DNA of 64,000 nucleotides, taken from an uncultured Chloroflexia bacterium. Lineage in GTDB: Bacteria; Chloroflexota; Limnocylindria; QHBO01. The notes beneath the pieces are model-generated. The model was given only the letters and a program-made list of their open reading frames with translations, did not search any database and had not been told where the DNA came from. Of the stretch, positions 13,638 to 22,041 are shown in pieces; positions within the stretch are counted from its first letter, which is position 1; every line of letters starts with the position of its first letter. The stretch is from contig CAWGTN010000002.1 of assembly GCA_963825525.1 (NCBI GenBank), forward strand, positions 1,696,001 to 1,760,000, in the 5' to 3' direction. Position numbers and translations under genes: made by a program.

Positions 13638-13713
<76 letters not shown>

Positions 13714-14309: not shown

Positions 14310-15005
14310 GTGCCGGACCACGAACTCGCCATTGCCAGCCTCCGCCGATGCGCGCTGTTCGCCCACGTCGAAGACGATGGGCTGCGGCTTCTGGTCGGGC
14401 TCATGCGGCCGCGGCGCTTCCGCCGCAACGAGGTGGTGTTTCACCAGGGCGACGTCGGCGATGCGCTCCACATCGTGGTCGAGGGTGGCGTAAAGATCGT
14501 TCTCCCCTCGGCCGAGGGTGACGAGGCGATCATCGCCAGCCTCAAGGCGGGCGATTTCTTCGGGGAACTGGCGCTGCTGGACGGCTCGCCGAGGTCGACC
14601 ACCGCCACCGCGCTCGAGCAGACCGAGACGCTCGCGCTGCCGCGTGACCAGTTCCTTGGCCTCTTGCCGGACGATCCTCGGCTCGTGACGGCGCTCTTGC
14701 GGGCGCTCGCCGCCGAGCTCCGTCGCCTGACCGGCCACGTCGAGGAGCTTCACTTCCTGGACCTCGCGGGCCGGCTCTCCATGCGCCTCGTGCGGCTGGC
14801 GCGCGCGAGCAATCCCGATGCGGCCGACCGAGTCGAGCTCGATTGGCCGTTCACCCAGTCCGACCTGGCCGCGATGATCGGGGCGACACGACAGAGTGTG
14901 AACAAGCTCCTCAGCGGCCTGGTCGACGAGGGCCTGATCGAGATCGATCGCGACACCCTGATCATCGTGGACCTCGCGGCCCTCGAAGCACGTGGGGCGC
15001 GGTGA
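14310..15005 (+). CDS. Crp/Fnr family transcriptional regulator
   Basis: cNMP domain (FHQGD, FFGELALLDG.PRSTTA) and HTH (TQSDLAAMIGATRQSVNK). Confidence 0.95.
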   Translation: MPDHELAIASLRRCALFAHVEDDGLRLLVGLMRPRRFRRNEVVFHQGDVGDALHIVVEGGVKIVLPSAEGDEAIIASLKAGDFFGELALLDGSPRSTTATALEQTETLALPRDQFLGLLPDDPRLVTALLRALAAELRRLTGHVEELHFLDLAGRLSMRLVRLARASNPDAADRVELDWPFTQSDLAAMIGATRQSVNKLLSGLVDEGLIEIDRDTLIIVDLAALEARGAR

Positions 15006-15006
15006 A

Positions 15007-15024
15007 GTGTCCGATTTCAGACAC
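15007..15024. promoter_or_regulatory. palindromic candidate operator upstream of the repeat-peptide operon
   Basis: GTGTC-CGATTTCA-GACAC; -10-like TAGGAT at 15068-15073. Confidence 0.4.
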
Positions 15025-15223
15025 ATGGCATGTCGCATCGGCGCTTCGTCGGCTTGCGAGGCGCCGATAGGATGAGCAAAGCGCGGTACCACTGCCGCCA
15101 CCGCCACAGGAGGGTTCGGATCATGGATCTCCGCCATCGGCAGCAGCCAATGGCATCATCCGCCGGACCAGACCAGCCCGGCGGCAAGTCATTCGAACAG
15201 CGCAGTTGAGAGGGAAACCAGAC

Positions 15224-15592
15224 ATGACGGACCAGCGCGACGACAGGATCGACGACGTCGAAGGCCACGGCTTCCGCAAGGGCGCCACTGACGACAAGCC
15301 CGAAGGCAGCGACTTTCGAAGCAACTCCGACGACGATGTCGAGGGTCACGGCTTCCGCAAGGGCGCCACTGACGACGACGATGTCGAGGGCCACGGCTTC
15401 CGCAAGGGCGCCACTGACGACGACGATGTCGAGGGTCACGGCTTCCGCAAGGGCGCCACTGACGACGACGATGTCGAGGGTCACGGCTTCCGCAAGGGCG
15501 CCACTGACGACGACGATGTCGAGGGTCACGGCTTCCGCAAGGGCGCCACTGACGACGACGACACCGAAGGCCACGTGATGAACCTCAGGTAG
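15224..15592 (+). CDS. multi-cassette acidic repeat peptide (putative precursor) with D-rich VEGH-GFRKGAT units
   Basis: GAGAGGGA RBS; 122 aa; six VEGHGFRKGAT copies, one degenerate unit, terminal TEGH-VMNLR. Confidence 0.85.
   Translation: MTDQRDDRIDDVEGHGFRKGATDDKPEGSDFRSNSDDDVEGHGFRKGATDDDDVEGHGFRKGATDDDDVEGHGFRKGATDDDDVEGHGFRKGATDDDDVEGHGFRKGATDDDDTEGHVMNLR
15329..15550 (+). repeat. 45-bp coding tandem repeat, 5 copies (first is 42 bp)
   Basis: Unit GACGACGACGATGTCGAGGG(T/C)CACGGCTTCCGCAAGGGCGCCACT; variation is synonymous. Confidence 0.95.
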
Positions 15593-15605: not shown

Positions 15606-16382
15606 GTGGACCAGGAGTCCCAGGCCGCGCTCACCGCACTCGTTGCGGGGGCGCGGCGTTCTGCCGTCGGTCGCCGGTTGCAGGGCGACATCGAGACCCG
15701 GCTGCTGCAGAGCATCGTTGACGCCACCGTCCGCCTGTTCGACGCGGAGGCGGCGTCAATCGCCCTGTTCGAGCAGGACCCCGATCGCCTGGAGTTTCGC
15801 GTTGCGGCCGGTGAACAGGGGGCCGGCGCCGTTGGACTGACCGTGCCGCCAACGCAGGGCATTGCCGGATTTGTCTATTCGACCGGCCAGGCGCTGTCGC
15901 TGTCCGACGTCGCCAACGATCCGAGATTCAACCGCGACGCGGCTGAACAGACCGGATACGTGCCACGCTCGATTGCGGCCGCGCCCCTCCTGGATGAGGA
16001 AGGTGCCGTCGGTGTCCTGCAGGTCCTGGACAAGCGCGGATCGCCGACATTCTCCCTGCAGGACATGGAGCTCCTCGGCGTGTTTGCCGCGCAGGCGACG
16101 GTCGCGATCTCGGCGGCCAAGGTCCAGCGCGACACGGAGCGTCTGCTTCGCTCCACGATCGGGCGGGTCGGGCCGGACCTGGGCGACGAGGCCATCGAGC
16201 AGCTCGTCTCGTCGGCCACCATCGGCCTCGACGTCGACGATGAAGCGCCCTTCTGGCGACTGGTCGACCAGGTGGCGCGACTTCGGTCGCTGAGCGATGG
16301 CGAAGTCGCGCTGGTCACCGACATCCTGTCCGTGGTCGCCGACCACGCCGGACGCCGGCGACGCCCACAGGCTGGGCGGTGA
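15606..16382 (+). CDS. stand-alone GAF domain protein
   Basis: AASIAL, GIAGFVYSTGQ, DVANDPRF, TGYVPRSIAAAPL, VGVLQVLDK, FSLQDMELL. Confidence 0.9.
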   Translation: MDQESQAALTALVAGARRSAVGRRLQGDIETRLLQSIVDATVRLFDAEAASIALFEQDPDRLEFRVAAGEQGAGAVGLTVPPTQGIAGFVYSTGQALSLSDVANDPRFNRDAAEQTGYVPRSIAAAPLLDEEGAVGVLQVLDKRGSPTFSLQDMELLGVFAAQATVAISAAKVQRDTERLLRSTIGRVGPDLGDEAIEQLVSSATIGLDVDDEAPFWRLVDQVARLRSLSDGEVALVTDILSVVADHAGRRRRPQAGR

Positions 16383-17222
16383 CCGACCAGCTTCCGGCAT
16401 GGTCTGAACCATTCGCCGACCCGCGAGGGACCCTGCGCCGTCCGCTGCGACTGCGCGGATTGACACGGCGACTGGGCGTGGGGCGGTTCCACCGGGAAGG
16501 GCATTCGCGTCGGGATCATCGACTCGGGCCTCGAGAACGCCCATCCGAGCCTCAAGGGTCGCGTCGTGCAGAACGTCACCGTCGAGCTGGGTGAGGATGA
16601 GCCCGTTGTCGTGCCCGACGGCGAGCAGGACATGTTCGGCCACGGCACCGCCTGCGGCGGGATCATCGTCGGGCTCGCCCCGGAGGTCGAGCTCGTTTCG
16701 ATTCGTGTGCTCGGCGCCGACCTCCGTGGCAAGGGCGCCGCGTTCGCCGCCGGGCTCGAGTGGGCGATCGAACAGGGGCTGGAGGTCTGCAACCTGAGCC
16801 TCTCCTCGAAGAGCGAGTCGCTGTATCCGGTCTTTCACGATCTCGCCGATCGCGCCTACTTTCGAGGGACGGCGCTGATCAGCGCGGCGAACAACGTTCC
16901 GGCGCCGAGCTATCCGTCGTTGTTCTCGTCGGTGTTCTCGGTGGCCGCTCACGGCGAGCCCGATCCTCAACGCCTCTACTACAACCCGCAGCCGCCCGTC
17001 GAGTTCGGCGCCTGGGGCGTCGACGTTCCGATCGCGTGGAAGGACGGCGGGTCAACCGTGGCGACCGGCAACAGCTTCGCCGCGCCGCACGTGGCCGGTA
17101 TCGTGGCGCTCATCCTGTCGAAGCATCCGGGCCTGAGCCCGTTCGAAGTCAAGGCGATCCTCGCCAGTGTTGCCGACAATCCCGGTCGGCGCGCCTCGCG
17201 GCGCGCGGTCAGCCGGCCATGA
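16379..17222 (+). CDS. cytoplasmic S8 (subtilisin-like) serine peptidase (apparent +1 indel near 16469)
   Basis: After removing one base: ...TRDWAWGGSTGKGIRVGIIDSG; HGTACG; SAANN; TGNSFAAPHVAG. GTGA/ATGA coupling on both sides. Confidence 0.88.
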
Positions 17223-18844
17223 GCCTGGTCTCCACCTACGTCGAGCTGTTCCGACGCAACCACGCTCTGGCGCGTCTGCTGGCGGGAGAGTTCATCTCCG
17301 GCATCGGCGACTGGCTCTACCTGGTCGCCATCCTGGTGGTGGTCTACGCGGAGAGCAATTCGGCGGTGCTCCTCGGCATCGTGGGCGCTGCGCGCATCCT
17401 GCCGTACGTCCTCCTGTCGGTTCCGGCGGGAATCGTGGCCGACCGTTTCGACCGCCGCATGGTGCTGCTGGTGACCGACGTTGCGCGCGGAGTCCTGATG
17501 TTGGTCCTGGTTGGCGCCGTGATCGTGGATGCGCCGACGATCGCCATCGTGGGCCTTTCGATCCTGGCCGCCTGCTTCTCGACATTCTTCGGGCCGGCCA
17601 TCGCCGCGCTGCTGCCGATGCTGGTCGACGAGAGCGACCTCGGTCCGGCGAACAGTGCCTGGGCGACGCTCGACAACGTGGCCTTCATCGTGGGTCCGGC
17701 CCTGGCCGGCGTCCTGTTGGCGAGCGGCGGGCTTGAGTTCGCTTTCCTGCTGAATGCCGTGTCCTTCGGCGTCGTGGCCATCGTCCTGTGGCGGCTGCCG
17801 GTGCCGCGTCGCGCCCCGCCCAGCCAGGAACCGGGCGCCGAATCCTCCGAGGCAGAGCCAACATGGCGACACCTCGTCCGACCCATGGCCGGGCCGTTCG
17901 TTCTCGACTCGGCGACGAGCTTCGTGGGGGGCGGCGTGGGCGTCATGACCGTGGTCATCGCCGTCGACGTGCTCAGCTCCGGTGAGGCAGGCACGGGCTA
18001 CCTGAATGCTGCGACCGGCGTGGGCGGAGTGATCGCCGGGATCGCCGGTGGCGCGCTGCTGGCGCGACGGCTCGGCGTGCCACTGGCCATCGGTGGCGCG
18101 GCGGGAGCGATCGGGCTGGCCTGGCTGGCAATCGCCGGCGATCTCCTGACCGCCATGCTGGCCATCGGGGTGGCGGTGGCCGGCCTGCTGCTCCTGGACG
18201 TGGTGAACACCACGCTCATCCAGCGCATCGTTCCGGATGATCTTCGCGGTCGAGCGATGGGCGTGCTGCAGACGACGTCCGCCGTCCTGTATGCCCTCGG
18301 GTCACTGGTCATGCCGTTGCTGGCGAGCGTGATCGGCGTTCCCTACGTCCTCGTCGGCTCGCTCGTGATCGTGGTTGCCGGGGTCGTCGTTGCCCTCGTG
18401 CTGTCGCCCGCTGAGGGTGTTCCGACCCAGCTCGACCCGCGGCGCGCGCGGTTGCTCGAGCACTCGATCTTCCGAGGGCTGCCGACCGGACGGCTGGAGT
18501 CCGCCGCGCGCCAGCTCATCGAGGTCCCGATGGAGGCCGGCACCGTGATCATTCGCCAGGGCGACGTGGCGGATCGCTTCTACCTCATCGGCGACGGATC
18601 GGTGGCGGTGACGCAGGAGCCCGACGGCGGCGGAGCCCAGGAGCATCTCCGCGACCTCGGGGAGGGAGACGTATTCGGCGAGATCGGCCTCCTGCGCCGA
18701 TCACCTCGCACCGCGACCGTGACCGCCACCAGCAGCGGCACGCTCCTCGCGCTCGACGCGCCGATCTTCCGCGAGCTCGTCGGATCCGGGCCCGGTCTGA
18801 GCACGCGGCTGCTCGACCTCTACCGCGGGGCGCTCGCTCGCTGA
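17219..18844 (+). CDS. MFS transporter (DHA3/MefA-like) fused to a C-terminal cyclic-nucleotide-binding domain
   Basis: FISGIGDWLY, motif A (GIVADRFDRR), QRIVPDDLRGR; C-terminal IRQGD..DRFY, FGEIGLL...RTATV. Confidence 0.9.
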   Translation: MSLVSTYVELFRRNHALARLLAGEFISGIGDWLYLVAILVVVYAESNSAVLLGIVGAARILPYVLLSVPAGIVADRFDRRMVLLVTDVARGVLMLVLVGAVIVDAPTIAIVGLSILAACFSTFFGPAIAALLPMLVDESDLGPANSAWATLDNVAFIVGPALAGVLLASGGLEFAFLLNAVSFGVVAIVLWRLPVPRRAPPSQEPGAESSEAEPTWRHLVRPMAGPFVLDSATSFVGGGVGVMTVVIAVDVLSSGEAGTGYLNAATGVGGVIAGIAGGALLARRLGVPLAIGGAAGAIGLAWLAIAGDLLTAMLAIGVAVAGLLLLDVVNTTLIQRIVPDDLRGRAMGVLQTTSAVLYALGSLVMPLLASVIGVPYVLVGSLVIVVAGVVVALVLSPAEGVPTQLDPRRARLLEHSIFRGLPTGRLESAARQLIEVPMEAGTVIIRQGDVADRFYLIGDGSVAVTQEPDGGGAQEHLRDLGEGDVFGEIGLLRRSPRTATVTATSSGTLLALDAPIFRELVGSGPGLSTRLLDLYRGALAR

Positions 18845-19828: not shown

Positions 19829-20875
19829 GTGGACCACGTCGTCGCCCGCTATGAGCGCATCGTGTCCGATTGGTCCGCCCGGACCGCGGATCCGATGGAT
19901 CTCGTGCGCCTCGCCGCCGACGCCGCGCGGCTGGCCGCGGATGCGAGTCCAGGCTGGTACGGCTCCCAGAGTGGCGCGCTGCGTGCCGCCGCGCTGGCCG
20001 CTGCGGGCCATCCACCGGACATCGCGGTCATCATCGATGCGGATCTGCCGCCGGTCGATCCCACTGCGCCGGCTCGCCTCGCCGATCTGCTGCCCGGTGA
20101 CGGGCCGCTCCACGAGCGCATCCATCGCCATCGCGCGACGATGTTGATCCCGCCGGACCGGCTCGCCGAAGTTGCGGCTCGGCTGCTGCGATTGTTCCAG
20201 CGCCGAGCGACCGAGGACCTTGAGCTCGGCCAGGGCGTGCCGCTGGAGATCGGTCTCGCTCGACCGCGGAACGCCGGACCGGCAGAGGTGGAGTTGCCTG
20301 CAAGTTCGCCCCGCCTGAAGCTCGACTCCGGCCGAGCCTGGACCGCCGAGGCGTTGGCGCGGTGCATCACCGGGCGGGGAGTCCCCGGCGACTACCTCTT
20401 CGCCACGCTCCGGCCCGCGAGGCCGTCGTGGCATCCCAGCCCCCAGGACACCGTGGACCATGGGCTGCGCGCCGTAGGTCGCGAGGTGCTGCTGAGCGAC
20501 CACGAGCTGGGTCACGAGTTGCAGCGCATCGGGCGAGGCATCGGCGTGCCATGGGACGCCGAGCTGATCCTCGGCGTCTGGCGCGCAACCGATGATCTTG
20601 CGCCGGCACGGGCGGCGGCATTGGCAGCGGCAGTCACCCGCCACGAGCGCCGAACTCGAGTCCCTGGGCATGGCGCCGACGGTCGGCCGCCTCCGTCGTC
20701 GAGCGGGCTTCGGACCCGCTGGAGCGGGCACGCTGGGTGGCGAGGGCGGCCGGCCCACCCCTGGTTCGTCGGTGGCTGACGGTCACCGGCCAGACCGTCG
20801 GACTCGGACGCCTGGTGCGCGAACATCTCGTCCCGTCCCAGCTGCGCGTGGAGGTCGGGAATGCCGGAGCATTGA
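19829..20875 (+). CDS. hypothetical protein (probable indels in the 3' third)
   Basis: Long ORF with a leaderless-type promoter; plausible C-terminus LVRRWL...RLVREHLVPSQL lies in another frame. Confidence 0.45.
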
Positions 20876-22041
20876 GCGGTCCGTCGACGTTCTCCTGGTC
20901 GGAGGTGGCGTCGCGTCGGTTCGATGCGCCCGCGCATTGCGGCGCAATGGCTTCGATGGTTCGATCCTGCTGGTCGGCGACGAGGAGCGGCCGCCATACA
21001 ACCGCCCTCCGCTCAGCAAGGAGCTCCTGCGCCTTGATCTGCCGGACGACCTGGTCGATGCCGAGCCCGATGCCTGGTATCGGCGCCGATCGATCGATGT
21101 GATGACCGGCACCGCCGTGCGCACCCTGGAGCCGGAAGGACGGTCGGCGGTGCTCGCGGGTGGCGACACCATCCGTTTCGGCCGATGCCTGCTGGCCACC
21201 GGGGCCGAGCCTCGCCGCCTGTCGACTCCCGGGGCCGAGGAGGCCATGCTGCTGCGAACGTTCTCGGACGCTCGCAGGTTGAGATCCGCGGCAACGTCGA
21301 TGGAGCGCGGGGCCACCGCGGCGGTCATCGGCGGTGGATTCATCGGTCTGGAGGTGGCTTCCGGTCTTGCAGAGCTCGGCCTGCGTCCCATTGTCCTGGA
21401 GCAGGCCGAGAGGCTGTGGGGAGGCCGCCTCGGACGACTTCTCGAAACCTGGGCAGTCGGACCGGCTGCGATCCGCCGGCATCGAGGTCCGGTTCGGCGC
21501 CGAGGTCACTCGCCTCGACCCCGGGTCGATCCATGTCGGCGACGAACGCATCGAGGTCGGAATGGCCGTTGCGGGCATCGGCGTGCTCCCACGCTCGGAT
21601 CTTGCCGCGAGCGCCGGATTGGAGACCGACGACGGCGTGGTGGTGGATGCCGGCGGCCGGACGAGCCACCCGGCGATCTGGGCGGCCGGTGATGTCGCGC
21701 GATACGGGCCACTTCGCGTGGAGCATTGGCACGCGGCCCGAGAGTCCGGTGAGCGTGCTGGCCTCTCGATGCTGGGCCTACCTCTGCCCGACGTTCCGCC
21801 GCCGTGGGTCTTCACCGAGGTTGTCGGGATGGCCGTGGACATCGTCGGCGACGCGGCGGAATGGGACGACGAGCAGTGGCTGATTCCCGATCGCCTGCTC
21901 GTCCACACCAAGGCGGGCAGGGTCGTGCGGATCATCTCCATCGGGTCGGAGATGCCAGCGGGCGTCCTGCGCGAGGTGGTCGCCGCGCGCGAGTCAACCG
22001 AGTCGGTCAGCGCCCGGGCGGCCAGGCTGAACCGCCAGTGA
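20861..22041 (+). CDS. FAD-dependent NAD(P)H:ferredoxin reductase-like oxidoreductase (apparent indels near 20866 and 21460)
   Basis: VLLVGGGVA, PYNRPPLSK, LLATGA, IGGGFIGLEVA, then TSHPAIWAAGDVA and RVEHW in the next frame. Confidence 0.85.

What the first reader, a model, noticed from the sequence alone, without database searches (positions are those of the whole stretch)
15224..15592. Precursor-like peptide: conserved acidic (V/T)EGH motif followed by interchangeable short cores
Seen: MTDQRDDRI-[DDVEGH-GFRKGAT]-[DDKPEGS-DFRSNS]-5x[D3-4VEGH-GFRKGAT]-[DDDDTEGH-VMNLR]. The acidic xEGH motif is kept even in the last unit, where the following segment differs. That is the pattern of a recognition site plus variable core rather than a neutral VNTR. 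Nucleotide differences among the GFRKGAT units are synonymous (GGT/GGC, GAA/GAG), implying selection on the protein. The five near-identical 45-bp units allow copy-number (dose) changes. Inference: cleavage after His yields six GFRKGAT-containing peptides and one VMNLR. Alternative: an Asp/His-rich metal-binding or multivalent adaptor protein.
Basis: partly seen in the sequence, partly recalled or inferred. Interest (0 to 1): 0.85.

Follow-up and report, generated by a model that had tools for sequence, protein, structure and literature searches.

The report
EGH-repeat polyprotein in cNMP-protease operon
A small disordered protein built of repeated acidic "EGH" units with variable basic tails lies in an operon with a protease, an exporter and cyclic-nucleotide sensors; the gene set recurs in two bacterial phyla and may be an undescribed, signal-controlled peptide-releasing system.

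Summary
ORF 15224..15592 (+) encodes a 122-aa protein of tandem units [acidic run-(V/T)EGH-short basic segment], including five near-identical 45-bp repeats.

It belongs to a large unnamed family: 837 clusters at 50% identity. The motif D-D-(V/T)-E-G-H is near-invariant, while the segments between motifs differ completely between species of one genus.

The gene is first in a tight operon: repeat protein, GAF protein, prodomain-less subtilase, MFS transporter with a cNMP-binding domain. A Crp-type regulator and a conserved TGTC-N8-GACA palindrome lie upstream. Repeat gene, GAF and S8 occur together in 64 of 99 loci from Chloroflexota and Actinomycetota, in 18 different gene orders. A zinc-ribbon/class III cyclase/STAND/TPR gene often joins them.

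Best reading (about 0.4): a cNMP-controlled polyprotein cut by the subtilase at (V/T)EGH to release short peptides for export. Cleavage is inferred, not shown. An intact multivalent disordered regulator is a serious rival.

- The six GFRKGAT copies have no nucleotide differences at all.
- "MTDQ" is not a leader but a re-start inside a decayed longer N-terminus.
- The window's S8 gene carries one extra base.

The parts
14310..15005 (+). Crp/Fnr-family regulator (cNMP-binding domain plus Crp-type HTH)
   Evidence: Pfam cNMP_binding 92.7 bits and HTH_Crp_2 62.1 bits. A full-length homologue lies in 53 of 80 pattern-scan loci.
15008..15034 (.). Palindrome TGTC-N8-GACA (15008..15023) plus a third TGTC half-site (15031..15034), directly after the Crp stop codon; candidate operator
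   Evidence: All three tetramers are invariant in the alignment of 14 same-genus intergenic regions, while the bases between them vary. The palindrome occurs once in the window against 0.94 expected by chance, so its weight comes from conservation only.
15068..15073 (+). TAGGAT, candidate -10 element
   Evidence: Largely conserved block in the 14-locus intergenic alignment: three invariant columns, TACGAT in two rows and CAGGAT in one. The consensus promoter scan did not report it. Inference.
15124..15209 (+). Decayed relic of the ancestral N-terminal segment, in another frame and ending in TGA
   Evidence: Aligns base for base with the 5' part of the longer orthologs (MDxYRRRPPMEGFSRPGxLGGEA..DDxVEGH-IMTDQ). 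The first VEGH codons are disrupted, and the remaining GAG GGA now serves as the ribosome-binding box.
15224..15592 (+). Repeat polyprotein P0001, 122 aa: units of acidic run-(V/T)EGH-basic segment
   Evidence: 30 relatives by word-seeded search and 837 representative clusters by profile search. AlphaFold2 mean pLDDT 48.3, pTM 0.09, no secondary structure.
15328..15561 (+). Core tandem array, 45-bp unit x 5.2
   Evidence: Tandem Repeats Finder: 98% matches, score 461.
15606..16382 (+). GAF domain protein with a C-terminal four-helix region
   Evidence: Pfam GAF 70.6 bits. Model mean pLDDT 82.9. Among the best Foldseek matches are cyclic-nucleotide-binding GAF domains (PDE2A, PDE10A, CyaB2, Lcd1 with cAMP); the top hit is a GAF-containing HD-GYP phosphodiesterase. 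The stop codon overlaps the S8 start (GTGA).
16379..17222 (+). Subtilase (S8) without signal peptide or prodomain; the window copy has one extra base at 16467..16469 that splits the frame
   Evidence: Pfam Peptidase_S8 97.3 bits. D, H, oxyanion N and S are invariant in 33 orthologs. Orthologs read through in one frame. Contigs of 4 runs from 4 studies all lack one base there. Nearest solved relatives are true subtilisins. A 6-residue deletion follows the oxyanion Asn.
17219..18844 (+). MFS transporter (MFS_1/MFS_3) with a C-terminal cNMP-binding domain
   Evidence: Pfam MFS_1 128 bits, MFS_3 100.5 bits, cNMP_binding 69.4 bits. The ATG overlaps the S8 stop (ATGA).

Best explanation
P0001 is a translated, intrinsically disordered polyprotein. 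Each unit has an acidic run, an invariant (V/T)-E-G-H and a short basic segment whose sequence is free to vary.

It is the first gene of an operon that also encodes a GAF/helical sensor protein, a cytoplasmic prodomain-less subtilase, and an MFS exporter with a cNMP-binding domain. A Crp-type cNMP regulator and a conserved palindromic operator lie directly upstream.

Proposed mechanism (inferred):
1. A cyclic nucleotide is made, in many relatives by a neighbouring zinc-ribbon/class III cyclase/STAND/TPR sensor.
2. It turns on transcription through the Crp paralog.
3. It releases or activates the subtilase through the GAF protein, and opens the exporter.
4. The subtilase binds (V/T)-E-G-H as P4-P1 and cuts the extended chain at every unit.
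5. Several copies of a short, species-specific basic peptide are released, with or without the acidic part, and the MFS protein exports them as a signal or a toxin.

Shown: the anatomy, the family, the motif conservation, the gene linkage, the intact catalytic residues, the predicted disorder. Inferred: cleavage, cleavage site, export, role of cNMP, function of the peptides.
For: Motif versus spacer:
- The acidic D-D-(V/T)-E-G-H is near-invariant in 406 unique contexts from 107 proteins; positions after His are nearly free.
- 339 of 341 distinct spacers still keep at least one Arg or Lys, and Cys is almost absent.
- pN/pS is 0.00 and 0.16 for the motif, against 0.53 and 1.16 for the spacers.

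Unit register:
- Proteins end a median of 5 residues after the last EGH.
- In 22 of 97 proteins the C-terminal tail equals the start of an internal spacer, which then continues with a 1-3 residue linker and the next acidic run.

Gene linkage:
- Both GAF and S8 homologues sit in the 8-kb locus in 39 of 47 Chloroflexota-labelled and 22 of 33 Actinomycetota-labelled pattern hits.
- 64 of 99 loci hold the three genes, in 18 orders and orientations.
- In the window the spacings are 13 nt, a GTGA overlap and an ATGA overlap.

Subtilase:
- The triad and oxyanion Asn are invariant in 33 orthologs.
- No signal peptide or prodomain: the alignment to mature subtilisin covers residues 19-248.
- The loop after the oxyanion Asn is shortened by 6 residues. 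From recalled subtilisin numbering this loop helps form the S1 pocket, which would fit a special rather than a general specificity.

Substrate-like state: P0001 is predicted to have no fold.

cNMP theme:
- Crp, GAF and cNMP-binding MFS.
- Among the best fold matches of the GAF domain are cNMP-binding GAFs.
- A cyclase-STAND-TPR gene lies in 17 of 113 loci.
- Natural fusions of this S8 to cyclase-STAND-TPR, GAF, Crp and MFS parts exist.
- A conserved operator-like palindrome lies in front of the gene.
Against: - No result shows cleavage, export or even expression.
- The spacers evolve about as fast as neutral sequence would (pN/pS 0.5-1.2), which is also what unconstrained linkers of an intact protein show.
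- The S8-GAF pair is more widespread than the repeat gene. Of 19 more distant Chloroflexota loci fetched at +-7 kb, only 6 show an EGH ORF and 2 show a variant repeat ORF.
- 5 genomes with the S8-GAF pair have no two-motif pattern anywhere, so the protease does not need this protein.
- 11 of 33 actinobacterial repeat-gene loci have no S8 or GAF within the 8 kb held.
- No modifying enzyme is conserved, so this is not a classical RiPP cluster.
- In the window the S8 frame is broken by one base, although four independent contigs lack that base.
Confidence: 0.4

Rival explanations
1. The protein stays intact and acts as a multivalent disordered regulator. Each acidic (V/T)EGH is a short linear motif that binds the GAF protein or occupies the subtilase as a pseudosubstrate or inhibitor. 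The array would then scaffold or titrate the protease until a cyclic nucleotide changes the GAF protein.
For: - Predicted disorder.
- The motif is conserved while the spacers are conserved only in charge, as expected for linkers between binding motifs.
- The S8-GAF pair exists without the repeat gene, as expected if the repeat protein is an accessory regulator.
- Fold matches of the GAF domain include PDE6, whose entries show a small inhibitory gamma subunit in the complex (titles). That the gamma subunit is disordered and contacts the GAF domain is recalled, not tested.
Against: - The consistent co-occurrence with an MFS exporter is not explained (32 of 47 and 12 of 33 loci).
- The array end falls at one defined boundary.
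- Wholesale replacement of spacer sequence and length, from 0 to 63 residues, is tolerated.
Confidence: 0.28
2. The same gene set is a conflict or defence module. A STAND-cyclase sensor raises a cyclic nucleotide on attack, and the subtilase then cleaves the polyprotein into toxic or alarm peptides.
For: - Cyclase-STAND-TPR neighbours and fusions to the S8 domain.
- A published theme of actinobacterial peptide-processing modules coupled to AP-ATPase/TPR proteins and Crp-like regulators (PMC7159879, section 24 read).
- Rapidly diversifying peptide parts.
Against: - PADLOC gives only generic domain hits.
- Within the genus the cassette sits in one fixed, syntenic chromosomal place between housekeeping genes, not in a variable island.
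- It was found in 21 of 24 genus members searched.
Confidence: 0.12
3. The protein is an Asp/His metal-binding or metal-buffering protein, or its peptides are. The neighbours would be only loosely related.
For: - Every unit holds an Asp run and a His.
- Some relatives have His-rich spacers, for example in L167, L194 and L196.
Against: - Most members have only one His per unit and almost no Cys.
- None of the conserved neighbours belongs to a metal-handling family.
- The strict V/T-E-G order is not what loose metal sites need.
Confidence: 0.07
4. The ORF is a neutral minisatellite in non-coding or decaying DNA and makes no functional product.
For: - The N-terminal part has decayed in this lineage.
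- The adjacent S8 frame is broken in the window.
- No RNA data were available.
Against: - The frame is open in 107 relatives from two phyla.
- Gene-like GC by codon position.
- Zero non-synonymous changes in motif codons against an ortholog whose protein is about 80% identical.
- The broken S8 base is absent from four independent contigs.
Confidence: 0.03

Closest known systems
Cyanobactin precursors (PatE type) with the subtilases PatA/PatG
   Same: One precursor carries several cassettes. Short conserved recognition sequences flank hypervariable cores, and an S8 protease is encoded beside it. The recalled PatA site G(L/V)E(A/P)S has the same layout as (V/T)-E-(G/A)-H: aliphatic P4, Glu P3, small P2.
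   Different: - No leader is needed here.
- No heterocyclase, oxidase or prenyltransferase.
- The cores have almost no Cys.
- The S8 is a minimal true-subtilisin-like domain, and its score for the PatA/PatG model is 17.6 bits against a cut-off of 421.
- cNMP sensors and an MFS exporter are part of the set.
Actinobacterial peptide-processing systems linked to AP-ATPase/TPR proteins and Crp-like regulators (Kaur, Burroughs, Iyer, Aravind 2020, PMC7159879; section 24 read)
   Same: A small, rapidly diverging precursor sits beside a dedicated peptidase. STAND NTPase with TPRs and a Crp-like cNMP regulator are nearby. The product is proposed to be a peptide signal or toxin.
   Different: That system uses a zincin metallopeptidase, a single C-terminal peptide (FxSxx, RxD or acidic types) and often a radical-SAM/SPASM enzyme. 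Here there is a subtilase, a GAF protein, a tandem polyprotein and an MFS exporter. The paper's source-data files could not be opened, so I cannot exclude that this gene set is listed there.
Polyprotein pheromone and peptide precursors cut by kexin-type S8 proteases (yeast alpha-factor, fungal ustiloxin-type repeat precursors); recalled
   Same: Tandem copies of one short peptide are separated by conserved processing sites and released by a subtilase-family enzyme. Copy number sets the dose.
   Different: Those are eukaryotic and processed in the secretory pathway at dibasic sites, and there the repeated peptide is the conserved part. Here the conserved part is acidic-EGH and the variable part is basic.
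Bacillus Phr signalling peptides released by subtilisin, Epr and Vpr; recalled
   Same: Very short unmodified signalling peptides are cut from the C-terminal part of a small precursor by S8 proteases.
   Different: Phr precursors are Sec-exported and cut outside the cell, mostly carry one peptide per precursor, and are paired with Rap receptors. None of these features is present here.
QhpE and mycosin (best-scoring named S8 models)
   Same: Compact subtilases that process one dedicated protein substrate. QhpE is likewise small and cytoplasmic.
   Different: Scores are below both curated cut-offs: QhpE 113.2 against 165, mycosin 117.4 against 278.75. No QhpC/QhpD genes or ESX genes are nearby.

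Membership tests
Peptidase S8 (subtilases) | Pfam PF00082 above threshold, and the Asp-His-Ser triad with the oxyanion Asn | tested here: met
   97.3 bits against a cut-off of 21.8. D20, H60, N144 and S204 are invariant in 33 orthologs. The window copy needs one base removed at 16467..16469 to read in one frame.
Cyanobactin maturation system (PatA/PatG with PatE) | Protease matches the PatA/PatG family model TIGR03895 | tested here: not met
   17.6 bits, E 0.0012, against a cut-off of 421.05.
Cyanobactin maturation system (PatA/PatG with PatE) | Several cores flanked by conserved recognition sequences in one precursor | tested here: met
   Seven motifs in P0001. The motif is invariant and the spacers free across 107 proteins.
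Cyanobactin maturation system (PatA/PatG with PatE) | Leader peptide and a heterocyclase or other modifying enzyme in the cluster | tested here: not met
   The N-terminus is a secondary start without a leader. The only recurrent neighbour families are cNMP-binding (Crp, MFS), GAF/S8, the repeat protein and cyclase-STAND.
RiPP clusters in general | A post-translational modification enzyme encoded with the precursor | tested here: not met
   None among the operon genes or the recurrent neighbours.
QhpE leader peptidase (NF049966) | Score above the curated cut-off | tested here: not met
   113.2 bits against 165.
Mycosin (TIGR03921) | Score above the curated cut-off | tested here: not met
   117.4 bits against 278.75.
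Pfam PF21627 (BTH_I2711-like) | Family model matched by the protein and by its relatives | tested here: inconclusive
   P0001 scores 33.5 bits (cut-off 27), but no single stretch passes on its own and only profile positions 22-37 of 71 are matched. Only 2 of 16 relatives match at E <= 0.01. A genome search with the model found nothing, not even the window's own gene.
GAF domain proteins that bind cyclic nucleotides | GAF fold | tested here: met
   PF01590 70.6 bits. The model's GAF part has pLDDT mostly above 90. Foldseek E 1e-14 to 1e-11 against cNMP-binding GAF domains.
GAF domain proteins that bind cyclic nucleotides | Actual binding of cAMP or cGMP | not testable with these tools
   The stretch LDKx5Fx3DME resembles the recalled NKFDE signature of cNMP-binding GAFs. 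This is a lead only.
Crp/Fnr regulators | cNMP_binding domain plus Crp-type HTH | tested here: met
   92.7 and 62.1 bits.
Zincin-based actinobacterial peptide-processing systems (PMC7159879) | Zincin metallopeptidase beside the small precursor | tested here: not met
   The peptidase that travels with the repeat gene is an S8. No further recurrent family appeared in the clustering of neighbour ORFs.
Pycsar and other catalogued defence systems | Specific match to PADLOC system models | tested here: not met
   Only domain-level hits: the cNMP-binding part to PycTIR at 28-33 bits, and the cyclase to PycC at 62 bits.

The most novel reading that the evidence does not exclude
This is a cyclic-nucleotide-gated peptide factory. 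A STAND-cyclase sensor, a Crp paralog, a GAF-controlled cytoplasmic subtilase and a cNMP-gated MFS exporter together turn one disordered polyprotein into many copies of a short, species-specific peptide pheromone. That would give soil Chloroflexota and Actinomycetota a so far unknown cell-cell signalling language whose words change by repeat turnover.
Probability: 0.18. Interest if true: 0.88.

Novelty: new variant of a known kind. Interest (0 to 1): 0.72.

Why it matters
- **An unnamed but large family.** The repeat family has at least 837 clusters at 50% identity. It has no name, no convincing Pfam model and no solved relative. I found no mention of its motif in 8.4 million papers and preprints.
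- **A testable gene set.** It is tied to a compact set of genes combining three cyclic-nucleotide sensor domains with a protease and an exporter, in two phyla that dominate soils and include cultured Geodermatophilus and Nocardioides strains.
- **If the polyprotein is processed.** This would be a bacterial counterpart of eukaryotic pheromone polyproteins and a leaderless, modification-free cousin of cyanobactins. The motif (V/T)EGH would be a ready-made protease tag, and the cores would be naturally interchangeable.
- **If it is not processed.** It would be a clear case of a multivalent short-linear-motif protein controlling a bacterial subtilase.
- Either outcome can be tested with a simple in-vitro cleavage assay.

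Tried and rejected
- **Complex prediction** of the subtilase (33-row alignment) with residues 63-122 of P0001: verdict "no answer", score 0.01 against a mark of 0.32, controls not run. This is no evidence either way.
- **Expression:** no RNA holder was listed among 24 runs, so nothing can be said about expression.
- **Unit number from reads:** the contigs of four runs break inside the array (about 15286..15532), so copy number in populations could not be read.
- **The search for related loci** with alignment A1 could not build a pattern. I used a three-motif DNA pattern instead.
- **PF21627 genome search** found nothing in the window's own genome or in the controls.
- **PDB sequence searches** with P0001 and profile A1 found nothing. 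The two GFP-sensor rows at E 0.5 are chance.
- **Protein Atlas:** the nearest clusters are unnamed hypothetical proteins, scores 0.88-0.89, below the 0.9 line.
- **PADLOC:** generic hits only.
- **Further substrates:** a six-frame scan of the whole genome for [DE][VT]EGH gave 7 hits in P0001 and 12 scattered single hits that look like chance.
- **Pfam** found nothing on the larger DVEGH-bearing membrane proteins or on three other subfamily members.
- **Literature:** motif strings, BTH_I2711 and two domain-combination searches gave nothing on this gene set. Only the thematic parallel in PMC7159879 came up (passages and section 24 read). Its supplementary data could not be opened.
- **Considered and dropped:**
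  - RTX-like calcium beta-roll: no fold is predicted.
  - Macrocyclisation by a PatG-like enzyme: no PatG match.
  - A neutral VNTR: see the rival explanations.
Full report
**1. The observation**

The window at 15224..15592 (+) reads MTDQRDDRI, then eight units that each end in an acidic run plus (V/T)EGH (one copy is degenerate, DDKPEGS), then VMNLR and a stop. Tandem Repeats Finder gives a 45-bp unit, 5.2 copies, 98% matches, score 461 at 15328..15561, inside a looser 135-bp period over 15250..15571.

The ORF has the codon-position GC profile of its neighbours: 0.84/0.74/0.40, against 0.82-0.87/0.74-0.77/0.43-0.49. A GAGGG box lies 9 nt before the ATG.

One detail does not. The six GFRKGAT copies are identical at every nucleotide. 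The only differences between units lie in the motif codons: three kinds of synonymous change, plus GTC->ACC giving V->T. The within-gene comparison therefore shows recent duplication and says nothing about selection on the cores.

**2. A large unnamed family**

- A word-seeded search found 30 small proteins (76-180 aa), all built of the same units.
- A profile search over 1.84 billion cluster representatives found 837 at E <= 0.001 and 79 at E <= 1e-10; the 150 best listed are 65-381 aa long.
- From fetched loci and these hits I compiled 107 non-identical members with 2-10 motifs and a median length of 106 aa.

In 406 unique motif contexts:

| Position relative to His | Residue |
|---|---|
| -4 | D in 92% |
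| -5 | D in 75% |
| -6 | D or E in 75% |
| -3 | V 60%, T 37% |
| +1 onwards | under 1.3 bits at every position |

E, G and H were fixed by my search expression. They are also invariant or nearly so in the independent alignments A1 and A4.

The spacers, with the trailing acidic run stripped, have a median length of 8 residues (range 0-63). There are 319 different strings among 341. Yet 339 of 341 keep at least one Arg or Lys, and Cys occurs twice in all.

Between orthologs, motif codons give pN/pS 0.00 and 0.16, and spacer codons 0.53 and 1.16. Repeats are not independent, so these figures are rough.

But spacer rates near neutrality fit free linkers as well as diversifying cores.

**3. Unit register and ends**

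Proteins stop a median of 5 residues after the last EGH. 105 of 107 tails hold Arg or Lys, and 60 end in one.

In 22 of 97 proteins the tail is identical to the beginning of an internal spacer, and in 7 more it differs by one residue. The internal spacer then continues with a 1-3 residue linker and the next acidic run. The natural unit is therefore acidic run-(V/T)EGH-basic segment, and arrays end at a fixed boundary.

The window's last unit (VMNLR) is shared with orthologs whose internal cores differ. That is what edge units of a homogenising array look like. It need not mean a deliberately different core.

AlphaFold2 with an 18-row alignment predicts no structure at all for P0001: mean pLDDT 48.3, pTM 0.09.

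**4. The N-terminus is secondary**

Fourteen same-genus intergenic regions align. Most orthologs start about 100 nt further upstream and encode a conserved head (MDxYRRRPPMEGFSRPGxLGGEA), a first VEGH, and then IMTDQ.

In the window the same DNA is present at 15124..15209 but has decayed. It lies in another frame and ends in TGA, and the first VEGH codons are disrupted. Translation must restart at the Met of the old IMTDQ. The old Glu-Gly codons now form the ribosome-binding box.

So MTDQRDDRI is not a leader. Three genomes searched, plus one MAG protein, share this short form.

**5. The operon and its regulator**

| Gene | Window position | Evidence |
|---|---|---|
| Crp/Fnr regulator | 14310..15005 | cNMP_binding + HTH |
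| Repeat protein | 15224..15592 | see above |
| GAF protein | 15606..16382 | starts 13 nt after the repeat gene |
| Subtilase (S8) | GTG at 16379 | overlaps the GAF stop (GTGA) |
| MFS_1/MFS_3 transporter with C-terminal cNMP-binding domain | ATG at 17219 | overlaps the S8 stop (ATGA) |

Sources.

Directly after the Crp stop lie a TGTC-N8-GACA palindrome (15008..15023) and a third TGTC (15031..15034). Their tetramers are invariant in all 14 aligned loci while the bases between them vary. A largely conserved TAGGAT follows at 15068..15073. In the window alone the palindrome is no more than chance (1 found, 0.94 expected). Its weight comes from conservation.

**6. The subtilase**

In the window the S8 frame has no start before the Asp motif. 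Orthologs read (M/V)TxxLPAWSEPF...GLTRDWAWGG...IIDSG in one frame, and the window has one extra base at 16467..16469. Contigs from four runs of four studies, about 97% identical to the window, all lack one base there. The break is therefore an assembly error or private to this strain. A second gene, the FAD-dependent reductase at 20592..22041, is split in the same way.

Across 33 orthologs the catalytic Asp, His and Ser and the oxyanion Asn are invariant. The nearest solved relatives are true subtilisins (E 6.7e-42), aligned over mature residues 19-248. There is no prodomain and no signal peptide.

Right after the oxyanion Asn the family lacks six residues of a loop that, from recalled subtilisin numbering, helps form the S1 pocket. 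All named S8 models score below their cut-offs: mycosin 117 against 279, QhpE 113 against 165, PatA/PatG 18 against 421.

**7. Linkage beyond the genus**

Within the genus the cassette is syntenic in all 14 loci fetched (my expression flags the repeat ORF in 12 of them), but so are its flanks. That alone proves little. The genus tally of 21 of 24 includes the unpublished genome G006.

They came from Chloroflexota (Limnocylindria and others) and from Actinomycetota: Geodermatophilus, Nocardioides, Frankiaceae, Sporichthyaceae, Acidimicrobiia, Thermoleophilaceae.

| Label | Loci | GAF and S8 both in the 8-kb locus |
|---|---|---|
| Chloroflexota | 47 | 39 (5 of the 8 others sit on stretches shorter than 8 kb) |
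| Actinomycetota | 33 | 22 (at 47-56% S8 identity); 11 have neither |

Sources.

Counting these and 19 further loci, 64 of 99 hold the repeat gene, GAF and S8, in 18 different orders and orientations. That is strong evidence for a functional unit.

The reverse does not hold.
- The S8 query found orthologs in 34 of 301 Chloroflexota genomes (the tally includes the unpublished G180).
- GAF is next to S8 in 28 of 30 loci; the other 2 are cut by contig ends.
- Of 19 distant loci fetched at +-7 kb, only 6 show an EGH ORF. Two show variant repeat ORFs at the same place: DDVSGH units in L199, and FHP(S/T)PTG units with a single TEGQ in L190. Eleven show none, and two of those lie on short contigs.
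- Five genomes that have the pair lack any two-motif pattern genome-wide.

The S8-GAF pair is thus the older, wider module, and the EGH polyprotein is one of its clients.

**8. A cyclic-nucleotide theme**

- Clustering the neighbour ORFs gave one further recurrent family: a zinc-ribbon/class III cyclase/STAND (AAA_16 or NB-ARC)/TPR protein, present in 17 of 113 loci. It is not in the window. The window's genome has a 54%-identical copy on another contig.
- Long proteins containing this S8 include an in-frame cyclase-STAND-TPR-S8 fusion (P0051), S8 fused to a kinase-like domain, and GAF-S8, Crp-S8 and S8-MFS forms. At least two GAF-S8 cases are frameshift artefacts, and one (P0035) reads cleanly.
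- The GAF protein models as a GAF domain plus four helices (pLDDT 82.9). Among its best fold matches are cNMP-binding GAF domains; the top hit is a GAF-containing HD-GYP phosphodiesterase.

**9. Reading**

The anatomy fits a polyprotein substrate:
- an unfolded chain;
- an invariant tetrapeptide with an aliphatic residue four places before a fixed His, the spacing at which subtilases read P4 and P1 (established knowledge of the family);
- a dedicated, cytoplasmic, prodomain-less subtilase with an altered loop next to the oxyanion Asn;
- an exporter translationally coupled to the protease.

I therefore rank cNMP-controlled cleavage at (V/T)EGH followed by export first, at about 0.4. Every step after the anatomy is inferred.

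The main rival, at about 0.28, is an intact multivalent motif protein that binds or blocks the GAF-subtilase pair. A defence reading of the same biochemistry, metal binding and a neutral minisatellite follow.

**10. Comparison and novelty**

The logic resembles cyanobactin precursors, fungal and yeast polyprotein pheromones, and Bacillus Phr peptides (all three recalled). It also resembles the zincin-based actinobacterial peptide-processing systems linked to AP-ATPase/TPR and Crp-like genes (PMC7159879, section 24 read). Membership in each was tested and not met.

Neither the motif nor this gene combination turned up in the literature searches. Supplementary tables of PMC7159879 could not be opened. 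I file it as a new variant of a known kind.

Noticed in passing
window 16467..16469: The S8 gene has one extra base relative to all orthologs and to contigs of four independent runs, splitting it into ORF 16379.. and frame 16464..17222. Probably an indel error of the assembly.
   Followed up: yes
window 20592..22041: An FAD-dependent pyridine-nucleotide-disulphide-oxidoreductase-like gene is also split between two frames near 21.4 kb. This is a second apparent frameshift in the window.
   Followed up: partly
window 15124..15209: Relic of the ancestral N-terminal segment of the repeat protein. The present ribosome-binding box is made of the Glu-Gly codons of the destroyed first motif.
   Followed up: yes
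L155:2-1318, L157:602-1363, L159:555-1445: In three related genera a larger protein with a predicted membrane helix, encoded on the other side of the S8 gene, also carries DVEGH motifs, followed by strand-like segments (..DDVEGHAISLRFPS..). It has no Pfam match and may be a second kind of client of the protease.
   Followed up: partly
L199:7639-7887 (-) and L190:5838-6206 (+): At the same position between Crp and GAF, one genome has DDVSGH units instead of DVEGH. Another has FHP(S/T)PTG repeats with a single EDTEGQG. These natural motif variants are useful for covariation with the protease.
   Followed up: no
P0005, P0011, P0020 (alignment A4); L045: A subtype ends not in a short tail but in a conserved basic tail of about 38 residues after the last EGH (..GNPLLNQQLARAREQ..). 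If cutting is after His, this would be released as a longer peptide.
   Followed up: no
window 15551, run X10 (table 7): Two soil-metagenome contigs join a different core (reads EGH-TTRRGIA) to the same last unit. This shows core replacement between close strains in nature.
   Followed up: no
L023:3022-6525 (-), L181:1143-4706 (-), L041:2982-6566 (+) and 14 other loci; G000:C3:184802-187762: A zinc-ribbon/class III cyclase/STAND/TPR protein recurs beside the module. In the window's own genome it lies on another contig.
   Followed up: partly
window 13638..13713 (-): tRNA-Gly (CCC) lies between the kelch-repeat gene and the Crp gene.
   Followed up: no
window 15606..16382, residues about 141-155: The GAF domain carries LDKx5Fx3DME, reminiscent of the NKFDE signature of cNMP-binding GAF domains (recalled, not tested).
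   Followed up: no
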